Shown: positions 56,579 to 64,000, numbered from the stretch's first letter. The stretch is 64,000 nucleotides of DNA from Trypanosoma brucei (GCA_000002445.1 CM000208.1:3488001-3552000), one strand, 5' to 3'. Made by a program: numbers and translations. Notes: generated by a model from the letters alone, not told the origin.

Positions 56579-59500
56579 CCTGATAATGCAAAAAGGTGTG
56601 CGATACTTCCTGAGAGAAAAATATATATAGCAGTAAGGAATTATTTAGCAAAAAATAATTTTTTGCGGTGAGGGTTAATAGTTTAGTAGTTATCGATGAT
56701 GTACTTACAAAAATTCTTTATTATGCTAACATATCTATCTTTCTTTTTGGTGAAAGAAATTTAAGCAGTTATAATTGACTCATGTTGATTCCATATACCC
56801 TTCTTGACGCTGAGTGTTTTTTTAATTTCGTTTATCACCTTTTGCATCTTTTTTTCTTGTAGCCACGGGACACCACCAAAATATTCCTGTTATTACCATC
56901 AAAAGCATTGAGGAAGGACGAGTAATCTACACTATATATGCAAATCTTGGCTCAATGTTGTCATTAGTCATACGGTCCATATGCACCAGACGCGGCTAGT
57001 CGGGCCGAAAAATGCGTGCAATTTTCTCAACCAATCTTTCTGCACGTAGACGCATGCCCTTAAATGTTCGTATATTTACGTATACATGTATATTTGGGGC
57101 ACTTGATATTCGATGCGTTACAAGGAATTCCTTGTTTCCTCTCCGTTTAAATGCCTACGAGAAATGAAAAGTAGATTGGGGGAAATACACACAGCTGCTT
57201 TGCCTAAGTTTTGCCTTGTTTTTCTATATAGTCTAAACAACAATACTTTAATTCATGCCTAAATATCCATTTTTATGTACCTCATTGCAAAAGATGAATC
57301 AATCTGAAGAAAAATAATGTAAATATGAAAGGGATGTGAGAAACCACGCTGACACAGGAAAGTAACAAACAATTTAAGAGGAAGGCACCAAGTGCATGAG
57401 ATAAAATGTTTAGATATAATTTTATATCAAGATGGAGCACACATGCGCAAATGGCAACTACCTCGGTTGGTCAACAAAAACTCTCTTACGGAGAGTGGGC
57501 GACAGAAGTCACTTCTGAGAACCTGAAAACGGGTGAAACAATGCGAAATTGCGCTCATATATACAGTTCCGTGCTCATATGCATACGTTTAATACGTTAT
57601 TCGTTTTTCGTCTCGCTTGTTTTCCAAATTACCGGCACCTACGATGTGTATGAAAGAGAAAGTCAAAAGAACTAAGAAAGAAAAATCCGAAGATGGTCAA
57701 GAGTACTTCGGAATTAAAATCATCGCATAGCGAAACTCAAGCACTTCGGGACCCCCATTTAACAAAGTTCGTGTAGTTGGCCAAGCGACTATCTCAATTC
57801 TGACTATGCCTTCCATACAAATCGCCTTTAATTTTCTTTTCACCTTTTAATATGAAAGTTACCATCAATCTTAGATATAGCAGCATCAGCAGCAAACGGC
57901 ACGTCCAATATATCAAATGACCGATTATTTCTGTTGCACTTAAAATAAAGAACGTCAGTGGTTGTTTCAATCGCAGCAGGACAGATACACGTTTTCTGAC
58001 ACTAGAGCGTCCAGTGAATTAACTACTTCCACCACGCGTGCTTCATTGATCACGATTAGTTAAGTGTGTGTGGGAAAACGGTAACCTTAGGGTTCATGTC
58101 TCCGGTAGCTGAACCTCAAATTTTTCACTTATCACCCACTACACAACTTCACATTTTAAACATAGCCGGTGCTCGCAGAACTATTTCCGTGATCTTCTTT
58201 TTACTATTCTTTCCCTATCACATTGATTCGTAGAATGCGTTTAAGTCACCCCAATGAATAAACTCAAACCTTTCAAGTGTCTTAGAAACCGGAGAGGTGA
58301 TCTCACACCCACGACTACATCCCACTACAGGTGGGGAAATCCTCCTTTTAGGTGCATCTACAACAATCTGAAGATCCAAACCTACCCCCCCCCCCCAAGT
58401 AAAACCCTTATGTGACAAAAACAAGGTCCCTATACGCATCAGAAACTGCATAAACCAAACGATGTACCGCACAAGCTGAAAGTTCTAGCTTTGTACCGAT
58501 ATATCATCGTTACTGTTATAGCAATTAGATCCGTGAAAGAAGTTCAAACTGTATCGAGCGTCAAGAAGTAGCGTCCATAAATGGTAATTATAATAATATA
58601 CGGCCAGTTGTCACCGTGCGAAAACGCAACTCATATATTAGCACCGCTTCCAAGATGGAGATGGTCTGAACATGGGGAACGACCCTGACGGAAAGTATCG
58701 TGAGGTTCCAAAGCCCATCAGGGCTAAACCCCGCAGTCCATATACTCGACTCGGTCACGGGGGTGCATAACGAAATCAGCATCACCACCGTCCGCAACAA
58801 GAAACCCCTGCGGATACCTTTCACAGAGTAAATAAAATTCTCTAAACAAAATTACCTTAGGATGTTGTGTCACAAAAACAAACTAAACCCAGCATCCACT
58901 AGGCCTCTGCACCTTTTCCAGTAATATATCGGATGAATCGGAGCGCTGAGTCGAACGCGGTACTCTAGGTTAGGCATTTCATTTCCTCTCACGGTACCAA
59001 CGCCTCGCTTTTTTTTTATAATTCATTGCTTTGTGGCATGCGAGGCGTAAAGCTCAGCCGCCGCTCTCTTAGAAGCGGTCCTGCCTTCATTAAGACATTT
59101 GGTGTGTCAGCGACATTATCCGTGCTTCTTTCATTGTGAAATCTAACCGTAGTCATAGTAGCAGGCAAATGTCTTCCTCCATTGCCAACAGGACCTCCAT
59201 ATTTATTTTTTATTTAAAAGCCTTTAGTCTGTAAAGTTACGCTGAACTCCTGACAAACAGCAGCACAATGAGTATGATCTAACAATCCACTGGACAGAAC
59301 AGTGGCAGCACGCTCCACATGTCACTCATCGAACAATGACCGAATTTTCCATATTTCTATCTCCTCTAAATTCACATCACCGAGCTCATGTTTTTCTCAA
59401 GCATTACTCAACATGGAAACAAATCCGCTCCACACATCATTTTTTTCTGTTAACGGCGGCAAACAAGCGACAATGATTATTACCCGAAGTCGGTAGTAAA

Positions 59501-60120
59501 AGAGTGTCCATGGCCCTAACGCATAGCTTTTCATGCGACCATCCAGCCTTCCGTACCATAACTGATACCCTTCAGACACTCCAACGGCGATCGAGCACAA
59601 AACTATCCTTGTTCATGCTCCGACACGCATCCGCTGGCAATAACAACCAAATATCTTATTGATAAAACCAGAATTTCCATGAAAAAAGAGATAATCCATA
59701 GAGGAAAGTTGGTTCACCCACTGGCATCGCACTTTCAGATTTTGGTAGGTTGACGCAGTATTACTTCAAACAATCACCAATTCCCTGGACGATACATGCG
59801 TCATTACATTTTATTTTCGAAGTTCCCACATTGGTATAAAGCCACAGTTTTCATTGACCCACCGAACCGAGAAAGAAAATCATTTCGGTACCGCCTTAAC
59901 GATGAACGTTTTTCTCTTTTTTTTTTTTAGCAATGCCCGAAGAAACCTCACTCTTCTATACAGCATTGTTAGCTCCATAGCGGTCGATGAGACTGTGAAC
60001 GCAACGTTTCCCGTAAAGATATCGGCACACGTCCATTTAAAATAATATCAAGTCAGCAGCTGCTGCTGACACTTAAACTCCCGATTCCTTACAAAAAAAG
60101 AGAGGGAAAAGAGAAGTTCT

Positions 60121-63200: not shown

Positions 63201-64000
63201 ATAGTTACAAAAGTGTGTGTCTGTACGGCAGCGGATATTTCTCCAGTCCCCAATCGCTTCGGTTGCTTTTACTCTTTTGAAGCACGGTTCGGAAAGCGGT
63301 AGCTCAGTGCACTTCCATGGAAATAGCGATCACAGACAGGATATCAGTTGTTTGTCTGAGCTGACGTGGGCATGAAACAGTATCATGTGCTGTCTTTTGT
63401 CGGCAGTGACCAAATGTGTCAAGGCGAGCCTCGGGGAATCGTTTTGCTGTTCCTGTTGTGGCTCCTACTTTCCGTGGGGAGGGTAAGCGGAAGCGAGCGT
63501 GTCAGTTCAAGGAATTGAAGAAGGTGCACTGTTACGCGGACAAATTCGCGTCCGGGAATACTCCAACTAACAACCACACACGCACACTGCTCTTCCACCT
63601 GAGGCTGTTACGCCAGTTCCCTTTCAAGTGGCGTTGAGCTGATCAACCTCTGCTGCAGACGAGAAATTGCTCTGAAACAAGGGGCAGGAGACGATCCTTT
63701 CCCTAACCGCCTGTCTCAAAGAGCGATTTGCCTTTCCGGAGGACCTAACCTCATTTCGCTCACTCTTTGGGAGATGAGTCGGGAGTCTGCCTTGGCACCA
63801 CCACTGCAAAGTAGTTTTGACGGGTCTTGCGTCGTCGATGGGTCCGCCTTCGCGTATCTGGAGTCCCTCCGAGGATTCCGCATGTCCGAGTGCAGGTCTG
63901 TGGCGCGCCCCAGGGCGAGTTCATGTGGTGGCGCTGCCGCTGAAGCCTAGTGTTGCTGCGGGTGGTTTGCAGGTGCTCAGTTTTCTTTTCCGGAGGGAGG

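What the first reader, a model, noticed from the sequence alone, without database searches (positions are those of the whole stretch)
56650..64000. About 7.3 kb without any credible ORF, directly upstream (in transcriptional sense) of an array of about 30 minus-strand genes. It is a candidate strand-switch or transcription-initiation region.
All genes from 5.5 to 56.6 kb are on the minus strand, so their polycistron must start to the right of 56.6 kb. The final 7.3 kb have only short ORFs under 120 aa in all six frames. Base composition there is more balanced than in the left part of the window. It contains a (CT)17(GT)40 compound microsatellite (60121-60233), a C13 run (58383-58396) and GC-rich sequence at the very end (63800-64000). 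Such regions in trypanosomatids carry the histone-variant or acetylation-marked transcription start zones, and sometimes tRNA or snRNA genes or degenerate retroelement remnants (ingi/RHS) that I could not positively identify by eye.
Basis: inference. Interest (0 to 1): 0.55.

Follow-up and report, generated by a model that had tools for sequence, protein, structure and literature searches.

The report
Strand-switch region hiding a dead gene
The gene-free 7.3 kb is an ordinary divergent strand-switch (transcription start) region of Trypanosoma brucei chromosome 10, and it is unusually long partly because the ancestral first gene of the minus-strand array, a polyprenyl-synthase fusion enzyme still intact in T. 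cruzi, T. theileri and Leishmania, has decayed there into a relic.

Summary
Window 56650-64000 has no ORF longer than 120 aa. Its longest stop-free stretch (151 codons) equals what shuffled sequence gives, and no tRNA, Rfam or Pfam match was found. The window is T. brucei TREU927 chromosome 10.

In close relatives the next gene is the LYR/NDUFA6 gene (Tb927.10.14860). It lies on the opposite strand, with its ATG at about window position 65262. The stretch is therefore most of an 8.7 kb divergent strand-switch region. G+T strand composition flips at about 61.4 kb.

The new result is that 58.0-60.3 kb (minus strand) is a decayed pseudogene of a ~740-aa AttH/lipocalin/polyprenyl-synthase fusion gene. 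A profile of trypanosome orthologs matches 58857-59705 at E = 5e-17 with about 9 in-frame stops, and weaker pieces on both sides are exactly collinear. The intact gene occupies the same position and orientation in T. cruzi, T. theileri and L. tarentolae.

The C-run (C12, not C13) and the (TC)18(TG)40 microsatellite both lie inside the relic. The microsatellite has about 7-8 TG units in two other T. brucei strains.

Transcription initiation here is inferred from general knowledge of T. brucei, not tested. This is an ordinary kind of region with a modest, apparently unannotated, evolutionary detail.

The parts
55655..56578 (-). Last (most upstream) copy of the tandem ADP/ATP carrier genes. It is the first intact gene of the minus-strand polycistron.
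   Evidence: 307-aa ORF. Pfam Mito_carr in the identical proteins of other T. brucei assemblies.
56579..56644 (-). 5' flank of the carrier gene that is shared by all repeat copies. It carries a polypyrimidine tract and an AG upstream of the ATG on the minus strand. Homology to the other copies ends at 56644.
   Evidence: BLAST of 56001-64000 against loci with many carrier copies: the repeat match stops at 56644. Sequence read directly. The splice-acceptor role is inferred.
56645..58020 (.). AT-rich spacer (37-40% GC), the former intergenic region between the carrier gene and the dead gene.
   Evidence: Composition. No ORF, RNA family, repeat or Pfam match. The equivalent intergenic stretch is 0.65-0.73 kb in T. 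theileri and T. cruzi.
58020..60290 (-). Full extent, extrapolated, of the decayed pseudogene of the AttH/lipocalin/polyprenyl-synthase fusion gene.
   Evidence: Ends extrapolated from collinear matches to profile positions 50-76, 158-471 and 656-697 of a 749-position profile. The intact gene has the same position and orientation in T. cruzi, T. theileri and L. tarentolae.
58857..59705 (-). Core of the relic: 283 codons in one frame with about 9 in-frame stops, matching profile positions 196-471.
   Evidence: hmmsearch gave 49.7-54.0 bits, E = 5e-17 against six frames of the whole 64 kb, with the next best hit at E = 0.59. tblastn with the T. cruzi protein gave E = 1.8e-6. My frameshift-aware alignment scored 66 bits against 14.5 +/- 1.5 for shuffles.
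58179..58472 (-). C-terminal (polyprenyl-synthase domain) piece of the relic. WGGGVGLDLQIVVD corresponds to FGxxxGLAFQIVDD (second Asp-rich motif). RGCEITSPVSKTLERFE corresponds to RDGKITYPVAKAMGRLE.
   Evidence: The local alignment is reached by 1 of 300 shuffles and lies within 9 nt of the position predicted from the core. Pairwise scores against 7 orthologs are 1.4 to 5.3 sd above shuffles. Weak collinear hmmsearch hits.
60060..60140 (-). N-terminal piece of the relic. LLFSLSFFVRN corresponds to the family motif EFSFFASFFRQ.
   Evidence: Reached by 4 of 300 shuffles and lies within 3 nt of the collinear position. Part of the match is microsatellite-encoded low complexity, so this is the weakest piece.
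58385..58396 (-). C12 on the plus strand, which is G12 on the minus strand. It lies inside the relic, where it encodes the Gly run just before the second Asp-rich motif.
   Evidence: G10 is the 10-mer most enriched on the coding strand in the first fifth of T. brucei start regions, 132 against 17 occurrences (PMC5579346 Dataset EV1). The orientation here fits the minus-strand unit.
60118..60233 (+). (TC)18.5(TG)40 compound microsatellite, sitting in the N-terminal part of the relic. It is strongly length-polymorphic.
   Evidence: TRF. Alignment shows about 7-8 TG units in T. b. gambiense and Lister 427. The T. equiperdum contig breaks homology exactly at 60233.
60250..61400 (-). GC-rich stretch (54-60% GC at 60.25-61.25 kb) with G>C on the minus strand. 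It is the candidate 5' end of the minus-strand transcription start region.
   Evidence: Composition. The assignment is inferred from the published G/T bias on the coding strand of start regions.
60843..61205 (+). 120-aa ORF annotated in TREU927 as 'hypothetical protein, unlikely' (XP_827963.1, Q388C1). Probably spurious.
   Evidence: Exact look-up. Codon-usage score is -0.09 per codon, the same as antisense noise (-0.095 +/- 0.095) and unlike real genes (0.22 +/- 0.10). No homologs and no Pfam match.
61400..61450 (.). Point where strand composition switches: the minimum of the cumulative (G+T)-(A+C) curve is at 61427.
62250..64000 (+). Stretch where the plus strand is G+T-rich. It is the candidate plus-strand transcription start region. 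It runs on past the window end to the LYR/NDUFA6 gene, whose ATG is at about 65262.
   Evidence: Composition, including the gambiense extension beyond 64000. Position of the LYR gene in L004 and L012.

Best explanation
Window 56650-64000 is the larger part of an 8.7 kb divergent strand-switch region of T. brucei TREU927 chromosome 10. On the left is the first intact gene of a minus-strand polycistron, the ADP/ATP carrier array (ATG at 56578). On the right, just outside the window, is the first gene of a plus-strand polycistron, LYR/NDUFA6 (Tb927.10.14860, ATG at about 65262).

Shown here: the divergent gene arrangement; the absence of any intact gene, tRNA, known RNA family or retroelement protein domain; and a switch of G+T strand bias at about 61.4 kb.

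Also shown: 58.0-60.3 kb on the minus strand is the decayed remnant of the ancestral first gene of that polycistron. This was a ~740-aa AttH/lipocalin/polyprenyl-synthase fusion enzyme that is intact at the same position in T. cruzi, T. theileri and L. tarentolae. The loss of that gene is why the ORF-free gap is so long. The C12 run and the (TC)n(TG)n microsatellite are features of this ex-coding DNA.

Inferred, not tested: as at the other roughly 70 divergent start-region pairs of T. brucei, RNA polymerase II starts in both directions from broad, motif-poor zones marked by H2A.Z/H2B.V and acetylated histones. The minus-strand zone probably begins near 60.3-61.4 kb, so the relic would be transcribed as a non-coding leader before the carrier genes. 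The plus-strand zone probably begins near 62.3-64.5 kb.
For: Divergent arrangement:
- The opposite-strand LYR gene is the next gene in T. b. gambiense, Lister 427 and T. equiperdum. Its identity as Tb927.10.14860 comes from PMC8312217.
- No long minus-strand CDS continues the array.

No coding signal beyond chance:
- ORF lengths match shuffles. Small ORFs have codon usage in or near the antisense-noise range.
- No homologs. No Pfam hit at E <= 0.1 in six frames.
- No tRNA or Rfam family.

Strand switch and synteny:
- The skew switch is at 61427.
- The divergent arrangement of polyprenyl-synthase fusion gene and LYR gene is conserved in T. cruzi, T. theileri and L. tarentolae.

Relic:
- Profile match E = 5e-17, 50-54 bits. 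T. cruzi tblastn E = 1.8e-6.
- Frameshift-aware score of 66 bits against 14.5 +/- 1.5 for shuffles, with flanking pieces collinear within 3-9 nt.
- The relic is also present in gambiense and Lister 427, with frame breaks at different places.
- No T. brucei, T. congolense or T. vivax protein appears among 54 family members found.

[quoted passage not shown] The G12 here is on the strand expected for the minus unit.
Against: - No chromatin or primary-transcript data could be overlaid, so the positions of the two start zones are inferred from composition alone.
- The published coding-strand 10-mers are sparse in the region.
- The (TG)40 tract has only about 7-8 units in other strains, so it is unlikely to be a required promoter element.
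- Generic Pfam models do not detect the relic. Its N- and C-terminal pieces are individually weak (1/300 and 4/300 shuffles), and the N-terminal piece overlaps low-complexity sequence.
- T. vivax does not share the divergent arrangement within 10 kb.
- T. congolense could not be examined.
Confidence: 0.85

Rival explanations
1. The region holds an unrecognised functional non-coding RNA gene (snoRNA cluster, snRNA, or a long non-coding RNA processed from the relic or spacer), and that is its main content.
For: Nothing positive. Trypanosome snoRNAs and lncRNAs are poorly represented in Rfam, so negative searches are weak evidence. If the minus-strand unit starts near 61 kb, 58-60.3 kb would be transcribed.
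Against: No tRNA. No Rfam hit at gathering score, and only three chance-level hits at E of 0.07-0.6, two of them in the purine-rich flank and start of the microsatellite. No internal repeats of the kind snoRNA clusters show. No nucleotide conservation with the equivalent regions of T. cruzi, T. theileri, T. vivax or L. tarentolae.
Confidence: 0.08
2. The region is largely made of degenerate retroelement remnants (ingi, RIME, DIRE, SIDER) or RHS pseudogenes.
For: Retroelements do insert near this locus in a relative. One T. vivax contig has a full-length 1752-aa non-LTR element 1.4 kb upstream of the LYR gene.
Against: No reverse-transcriptase, endonuclease or RHS Pfam domain in any of six frames at E <= 0.1. 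The T. vivax element's protein gives no hit better than E = 9 in the region, and its DNA gives none. No sequence in the region is repeated within it. One 460-bp stretch (62998-63458) does have an 86% second copy in a T. equiperdum contig, which is unexplained.
Confidence: 0.05
3. One or more of the small ORFs is a real protein-coding gene. Candidates are the annotated 120-aa 'hypothetical protein, unlikely', or the adjacent 106-aa and 91-aa minus-strand ORFs at 62610-63195.
For: The 120-aa ORF is annotated in TREU927 and T. equiperdum. Three ORFs of 105-108 aa are called in T. b. gambiense. The ORFs at 62360-62680 (+) and 62610-62885 (-) have codon scores of 0.07-0.09, at the top of the noise range.
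Against: ORF lengths are what shuffles give. The 120-aa and 106-aa ORFs score -0.09 and -0.10 per codon, like antisense noise. No homolog was found among 5.8 billion clustered proteins for a concatenate of seven ORFs (that search did not recover the annotated copies of these ORFs either, so its sensitivity is in doubt). None was found among 1.84 billion representatives for the 102-codon stretch. No Pfam match. T. cruzi, T. theileri and L. tarentolae have no called gene between the fusion gene and the LYR gene.
Confidence: 0.05
4. The match to the polyprenyl-synthase fusion family is spurious, and the whole 7.3 kb is plain promoter or spacer DNA that never encoded anything.
For: Identity to T. 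cruzi is only 23%. Pfam's own models see nothing.
Against: Profile E = 5e-17 with the next best hit in the window at E = 0.59. 66 bits against a shuffle maximum of 19. The match is on the right strand, at the syntenic position, with collinear flanking pieces.
Confidence: 0.02

Closest known systems
Divergent strand-switch regions / RNA polymerase II transcription start regions (TSRs) of Trypanosoma brucei (Siegel 2009; Kolev 2010; Wedel 2017, PMC5579346)
   Same: Two gene arrays point away from each other. There is no intact gene between them. G+T excess lies on the coding strand of each side and switches in between. A G run lies on the coding strand of the minus unit. The strand switch is conserved in other trypanosomatids.
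   Different: The gap between start codons (8.7 kb) is inflated by 2.3 kb of dead gene. The histone-variant and acetylation marks and the primary transcripts that define a TSR were not examined here. The published GT-rich 10-mers are sparse.
Unitary pseudogenes left by lineage-specific gene loss
   Same: Single copy. Syntenic position and orientation of the intact ortholog. Many in-frame stops, and frame breaks that differ between strains. No intact family member among the T. brucei proteins found.
   Different: Decay is very advanced: 23% identity to T. cruzi, stop density about 70% of random (my estimate), and invisible to Pfam. It sits at the very start of a polycistron, inside a probable transcription start region.
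AttH/CrtC-like + lipocalin-like + polyprenyl synthase fusion proteins ('putative polyprenyl synthase' of T. cruzi, T. rangeli, T. grayi, T. theileri, T. melophagium, T. conorhini, L. tarentolae, bodonids, and bacterial 'geranylgeranyl pyrophosphate synthase/predicted secreted hydrolase')
   Same: The relic aligns collinearly to profile positions of about 50-697 of this family. It keeps traces of family motifs (FSxSFF, QIVxDA, ITxPVxK).
   Different: It is not a functional member. The reading frame is destroyed and the catalytic Asp-rich motif is degraded (VVDA in place of DD).
ingi/RIME/RHS retroelement hot spots at T. brucei strand-switch regions
   Same: A long non-coding stretch at a strand switch. 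A relative (T. vivax) has a retroelement at the orthologous place.
   Different: No retroelement or RHS protein domain is detectable in any frame.

Membership tests
Divergent strand-switch region / Pol II transcription start region of T. brucei | Flanked by two gene arrays on opposite strands that point away from each other | tested here: met
   30 minus-strand ORFs lie to the left. The next gene to the right is the LYR/NDUFA6 gene on the plus strand in gambiense, Lister 427 and T. equiperdum, with ATG at about window 65262.
Divergent strand-switch region / Pol II transcription start region of T. brucei | No intact protein-coding gene between the two arrays | tested here: met
   The only gene-derived sequence is a pseudogene.
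Divergent strand-switch region / Pol II transcription start region of T. brucei | G-over-C and T-over-A excess on the coding strand of each unit, changing sign within the region | tested here: met
   Cumulative G+T skew reaches its minimum at 61427. Windows left of 56.25 kb are all negative and those right of 62.25 kb are all positive.
Divergent strand-switch region / Pol II transcription start region of T. brucei | G runs and GT-rich 10-mers enriched on the coding strand at the 5' end of each start region (Wedel 2017, Dataset EV1) | tested here: inconclusive
   G12 is on the minus strand at 58385-58396, in the expected orientation. Listed 10-mers are otherwise sparse. The (TG)40 on the plus strand is strain-specific in length.
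Divergent strand-switch region / Pol II transcription start region of T. brucei | Enrichment of H2A.Z/H2B.V, H4K10ac, H3K4me3 | not testable with these tools
   No ChIP-seq tracks are available. Published as general for all polycistron starts (PMC5579346).
Divergent strand-switch region / Pol II transcription start region of T. brucei | Divergent 5'-triphosphate primary transcripts / Pol II peaks | not testable with these tools
   No RNA-seq or RPB9 ChIP data are available here.
AttH/lipocalin/polyprenyl-synthase fusion protein family (PF07143 + PF17186 + PF00348) | Significant sequence similarity to the family | tested here: met
   Trypanosome-ortholog profile: 50-54 bits, E = 5e-17. Broader kinetoplastid profile: E = 3e-12. 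T. cruzi tblastn: E = 1.8e-6.
AttH/lipocalin/polyprenyl-synthase fusion protein family (PF07143 + PF17186 + PF00348) | Orthologous genomic position and orientation (between the ADP/ATP carrier and the LYR gene, divergent from LYR) | tested here: met
   T. cruzi L008, T. theileri L010 and L. tarentolae L011 (the last for the LYR side only).
AttH/lipocalin/polyprenyl-synthase fusion protein family (PF07143 + PF17186 + PF00348) | Intact reading frame of about 740 aa | tested here: not met
   About 9 stops in the 283-codon core and frame changes between pieces. The longest ORF within the relic is 84 aa. Hence it is a pseudogene, not a member.
AttH/lipocalin/polyprenyl-synthase fusion protein family (PF07143 + PF17186 + PF00348) | Pfam domains above gathering score | tested here: not met
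   No family-relevant Pfam hit on the relic frame at E <= 1; the only hit was an unrelated DUF3482 at E = 0.17.
ingi/RIME/DIRE retroelement remnants or RHS (pseudo)genes | Reverse transcriptase, AP-endonuclease or RHS protein domains in some frame | tested here: not met
   Pfam on six frames. tblastn with a T. vivax ingi-like 1752-aa protein.
ingi/RIME/DIRE retroelement remnants or RHS (pseudo)genes | Nucleotide similarity to RIME, ingi-end or SIDER consensus | not testable with these tools
   No T. brucei repeat consensus was available. The T. vivax element DNA gave no match.
tRNA / snRNA / snoRNA genes | Match to tRNA model or an Rfam covariance model | tested here: not met
   ARAGORN found 0 genes. 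Rfam gathering found 0. The E-value mode found only chance-level hits.

The most novel reading that the evidence does not exclude
After the first gene of the polycistron died, its DNA was kept as part of the dispersed promoter or transcribed leader. On this reading the G12 tract and the GT/CT repeats that arose inside the ex-coding sequence now contribute to H2A.Z deposition and directional initiation, or the relic gives rise to a processed long non-coding RNA. The locus would then be a natural experiment on how trypanosome start regions re-form around a dead gene.
Probability: 0.12. Interest if true: 0.45.

Novelty: new member of a known kind. Interest (0 to 1): 0.27.

Why it matters
As a strand-switch region this is one of roughly 70 such pairs already mapped genome-wide in T. 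brucei, so the main finding is ordinary.

The added value is small but concrete:
- It explains why this particular gap is 4-5 times longer than any other intergenic gap in the window.
- It documents loss by decay of an isoprenoid-related fusion enzyme in the T. brucei lineage. The enzyme is kept by stercorarian trypanosomes, Leishmania and bodonids. T. congolense and T. vivax also lacked a family member among the proteins found, but their genomes could not be examined for a relic.
- It argues that the only annotated feature in the gap, a 120-aa 'hypothetical protein, unlikely', is spurious.
- It shows that a lineage-specific profile plus synteny recovers a relic that Pfam and by-eye reading both miss.

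Tried and rejected
Searches of the region that found nothing:
- tRNA scan.
- Rfam at gathering score. In E-value mode only mir-14, mir-9201 and a group II D5 fragment appeared, at E of 0.07-0.6. The two miRNA hits lie in the purine-rich flank and start of the microsatellite. All are chance.
- Direct and inverted repeats within the region: only short chance matches.
- Pfam on all six frames with stops masked. The only hit was one irrelevant DUF at E = 0.17.

Cross-species comparisons that found nothing:
- T. vivax ingi-like retroelement protein against the window.
- Six-frame and nucleotide comparison of this region with the equivalent regions of T. cruzi, T. theileri, T. vivax and L. tarentolae, and with three T. 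vivax upstream genes. Only noise-level hits.
- The relic profile on the T. vivax loci: no relic within 10 kb.

Homolog searches:
- Seven small ORFs concatenated: no hit. The search did not recover the annotated copies of these ORFs either (the 120-aa ORF is in the collection), so its sensitivity is doubtful.
- Exhaustive search with the 102-codon stretch 62613-62918 (-): no hit.

Literature:
- Published coding-strand 10-mers: too sparse to map start zones.
- Siegel 2009 could not be read; the PMC id I tried is not held. The statement about G runs at strand-switch regions therefore rests on Wedel 2017 Dataset EV1 and my memory.
- Nothing was found on Tb927.10.14850 or on loss of this enzyme.

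Could not be done:
- T. congolense contigs are not in the accessible collections, so the loss could not be dated.
- No TREU927 chromosome coordinates were obtained, so published coordinate tables could not be overlaid.

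
Full report
**What the window is.** The three tandem 307-aa ORFs at 52895-56578 (minus strand) are mitochondrial ADP/ATP carrier genes. The identical protein is encoded on chromosome 10 of T. brucei Lister 427, T. b. gambiense DAL972 and T. equiperdum. The 120-aa ORF at 60843-61205 is, residue for residue, XP_827963.1 / Q388C1, 'hypothetical protein, unlikely [Trypanosoma brucei brucei TREU927]'. 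The window is therefore TREU927 chromosome 10.

**Checking the observation.**
- Between 56650 and 64000 the longest ORF is 120 aa.
- The longest stop-free stretch in any frame is 151 codons, counting those that touch the window end.
- Dinucleotide shuffles of the region give 150 +/- 26 codons. Every 7.35 kb tile of the genic part has a stretch of at least 344 codons.
- Thirty minus-strand ORFs of at least 150 aa lie to the left, with gaps of median 482 bp and maximum 1880 bp.
- The compound microsatellite is (TC)18.5(TG)40 at 60118-60233.
- The C run is C12 at 58385-58396 rather than C13.
- GC content rises from 37-40% at 56.5-58 kb to 59-60% at 60.5-61.25 kb, and is 56% at the window end.

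**Is it a strand switch?** In T. b. gambiense (L004), Lister 427 (L003) and T. equiperdum (L012) the next called gene beyond the window end is a 713-aa protein with a Complex1_LYR match. It lies on the strand opposite to the carriers and points away from them. Aligning these loci to the window puts its ATG at about window position 65262. A paper on trypanosomatid complex I lists NDUFA6, the LYR-family subunit, as Tb927.10.14860 (PMC8312217). I take the 713-aa gene to be that entry because the numbering fits, with the carriers at about 14840 from my memory. The two start codons are 8.7 kb apart, and the window holds the first 7.4 kb of that gap.

The excess of G+T over A+C is negative on the plus strand throughout the carrier genes and positive from 62.25 kb onward. 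The cumulative curve has its minimum at 61427. The sequence beyond 64000, taken from gambiense, is strongly G+T-rich on the plus strand up to the LYR gene.

**Synteny, and the unexpected part.** Orthologs of the LYR protein are highly conserved across kinetoplastids. I fetched their loci.
- In T. cruzi and T. theileri the order is kinase, MBF1, ADP/ATP carrier(s), then a 735-747-aa gene with AttH, lipocalin-like and polyprenyl-synthase domains. All of these are on one strand. The LYR gene follows on the other strand.
- L. tarentolae has the same fusion gene divergent from the LYR gene.
- The fusion gene is thus the ancestral first gene of this polycistron, and T. brucei has no ORF there.
- A search with the T. 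cruzi protein found 54 family members. They come from stercorarian trypanosomes, unnamed kinetoplastid-like sequences, a bodonid and bacteria. None is from T. brucei, T. congolense or T. vivax.

**The relic.**
- tblastn of the T. cruzi protein against the whole window gave one hit: residues 202-401 to 59684-59067 on the minus strand, 23% identity, E = 1.8e-6. T. c. marinkellei and one distant member hit the same place.
- A profile built from seven trypanosome orthologs matched 58857-59705 (minus strand, one frame, profile positions 196-471 of 749). The score was 49.7-54.0 bits, E = 5e-17 against all six frames of the 64 kb. The next best hit had E = 0.59. The aligned frame holds about nine stop codons.
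- My frameshift-aware profile-to-DNA alignment scored 66 bits for the core, against 14.5 +/- 1.5 (maximum 19) for dinucleotide shuffles.
- Restricting the search to the flanks gave two weaker pieces. The C-terminal piece (profile 656-672) is at 58263-58313, where RGCEITSPVSKTLERFE aligns to rdGkitypvakamgrle; 1 of 300 shuffles reached its score. The N-terminal piece (profile 50-76) is at 60060-60140, where LLFSLSFFVRN aligns to EFSFFASFFRQ; 4 of 300 shuffles reached its score.
- Both pieces lie within 3-9 nt of the positions predicted by collinearity with the core.
- The 84-aa ORF at 58218-58472 aligns to the C-terminal domain of the orthologs at up to 5.3 sd above shuffles. There, WGGGVGLDLQIVVD lies opposite FGxxxGLAFQIVDD, the second Asp-rich motif.

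Extrapolating the ends gives a relic of about 58020-60290. Generic Pfam models do not see it. The relic is also detected in gambiense and Lister 427, with frame breaks at different profile positions, as expected for unconstrained DNA.

- The C12 run is G12 on the minus strand and encodes the Gly run just before the degraded Asp-rich motif. It therefore lies inside the dead gene.
- The microsatellite lies where the N-terminal QWWYFNAHL motif should be.
- The TG tract has 40 units here but about 7-8 in gambiense and Lister 427. It is an unstable repeat, not a conserved element.

**What else is in the gap.** Nothing that I could identify.
- No tRNA, and no Rfam family beyond chance-level hits.
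- No internal repeats.
- No Pfam domain at E <= 0.1 in any frame, and so no reverse transcriptase, endonuclease or RHS.
- No similarity to a T. vivax ingi-like element.
- No protein-level or nucleotide-level conservation with the equivalent regions of four other species.
- The small ORFs have codon-usage scores of -0.18 to +0.10 per codon. Antisense noise scores -0.095 +/- 0.095 and real genes score 0.22 +/- 0.10. The highest-scoring small ORF is a piece of the relic.
- They have no detectable homologs. One search did not recover the annotated copies of these ORFs either, so that negative is weak.

**How it most likely works.** Published genome-wide work states the following (PMC5579346).
- In T. 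brucei, H2A.Z covers about 10 kb at the start of every polycistron.
- Primary transcripts and Pol II peak at the 5' ends of these regions, with a 4:1 sense bias.
- 71 divergent start regions exist.
[quoted passage not shown] G10 is the top one, at 132 against 17 occurrences in the first fifth.

From this I infer that the interval is a pair of divergent start regions. The minus-strand one would begin in the GC-rich stretch at 60.3-61.4 kb, which is G-rich on the minus strand, and run through the relic (with its G12) into the carrier array. The plus-strand one would begin around 62.3-64.5 kb and run into the LYR gene. The listed 10-mers are too sparse here to locate the zones. No ChIP or primary-transcript data could be overlaid, so these positions remain inference.

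**Age of the relic (rough inference).** Intact orthologs share 51-58% identity with T. cruzi, while the relic shares 23%. Its stop density, 9 in 283 codons, is about 70% of what random sequence would give by my estimate. The loss is therefore old, far older than the 2-3% divergence among T. brucei subspecies seen in this region. T. vivax has a rearranged locus with no relic within 10 kb.

**Verdict.** Its main interpretation is supported for the strand switch and plausible for initiation. The region belongs to a well-known class, so interest is low. The one addition is the heavily decayed, apparently unannotated pseudogene of the polycistron's ancestral first gene.

Noticed in passing
window 1-5400: The left end of the window is 30-35% GC, A-rich low-complexity sequence on the plus strand with no ORFs. 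It lies at the 3' end of the minus-strand gene array. The published T-rich coding-strand 10-mers are very dense on its minus strand, with 100 hits in the first 4 kb. It may be a termination, strand-switch or other boundary region.
   Followed up: partly
window 490-558: A near-perfect hairpin lies within the AT-rich left end: 26-nt arms, 96% complementary, 17-nt loop (TTTATTTGATTCCTCATGTGGACTCC / GGAATCCACATGAGGAATCAAATAAA).
   Followed up: partly
L012 (T. equiperdum CZPT02001073.1) 1-9390 versus window 60233: The T. equiperdum contig matches the window only from 60233, the right edge of the (TG)n, onward. To the left it carries unrelated DNA with a PAZ/Piwi gene. This is probably an assembly chimera at the microsatellite, but a real rearrangement is not excluded.
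   Followed up: partly
window 62998-63458; L012 8908-9379: A second copy of this 460-bp stretch, 86% identical, sits next to the junction in the T. equiperdum contig. It could be a dispersed repeat or a local duplication. No such copy was seen in the gambiense or Lister 427 loci.
   Followed up: no
window 62788-62957: This 170-bp segment is absent from the T. equiperdum contig but present in TREU927, gambiense and Lister 427.
   Followed up: no
L001-L003 (Lister 427, CM010681.1) versus window 52895-56578: The ADP/ATP carrier array has 3 copies in the window (TREU927). It has at least 10 consecutive copies in the Lister 427 long-read assembly and 1 in the gambiense assembly. This reflects copy-number variation or collapse of the array in older assemblies.
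   Followed up: partly
L007 3383-8641 (T. vivax SOPI01000017.1): A full-length 1752-aa non-LTR retrotransposon (endonuclease + RVT_1 + zinc fingers) sits 1.4 kb upstream of the LYR gene in one T. vivax contig but not in the other (L006). In T. vivax the genes upstream of LYR are on the same strand, so the divergent arrangement is not conserved there.
   Followed up: partly
proteins P0084-P0102: The AttH/lipocalin/polyprenyl-synthase fusion architecture also occurs in bacterial and metagenomic proteins at 23-35% identity over the full length. This raises the possibility of an ancient transfer between bacteria and kinetoplastids.
   Followed up: no
window 5656-5816: A 78-nt tandem repeat (2 copies, 80% matches) plus 9- and 15-nt repeats lie inside the 685-aa minus-strand ORF 5511-7568. 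They would encode a Gly-rich repetitive protein segment.
   Followed up: no
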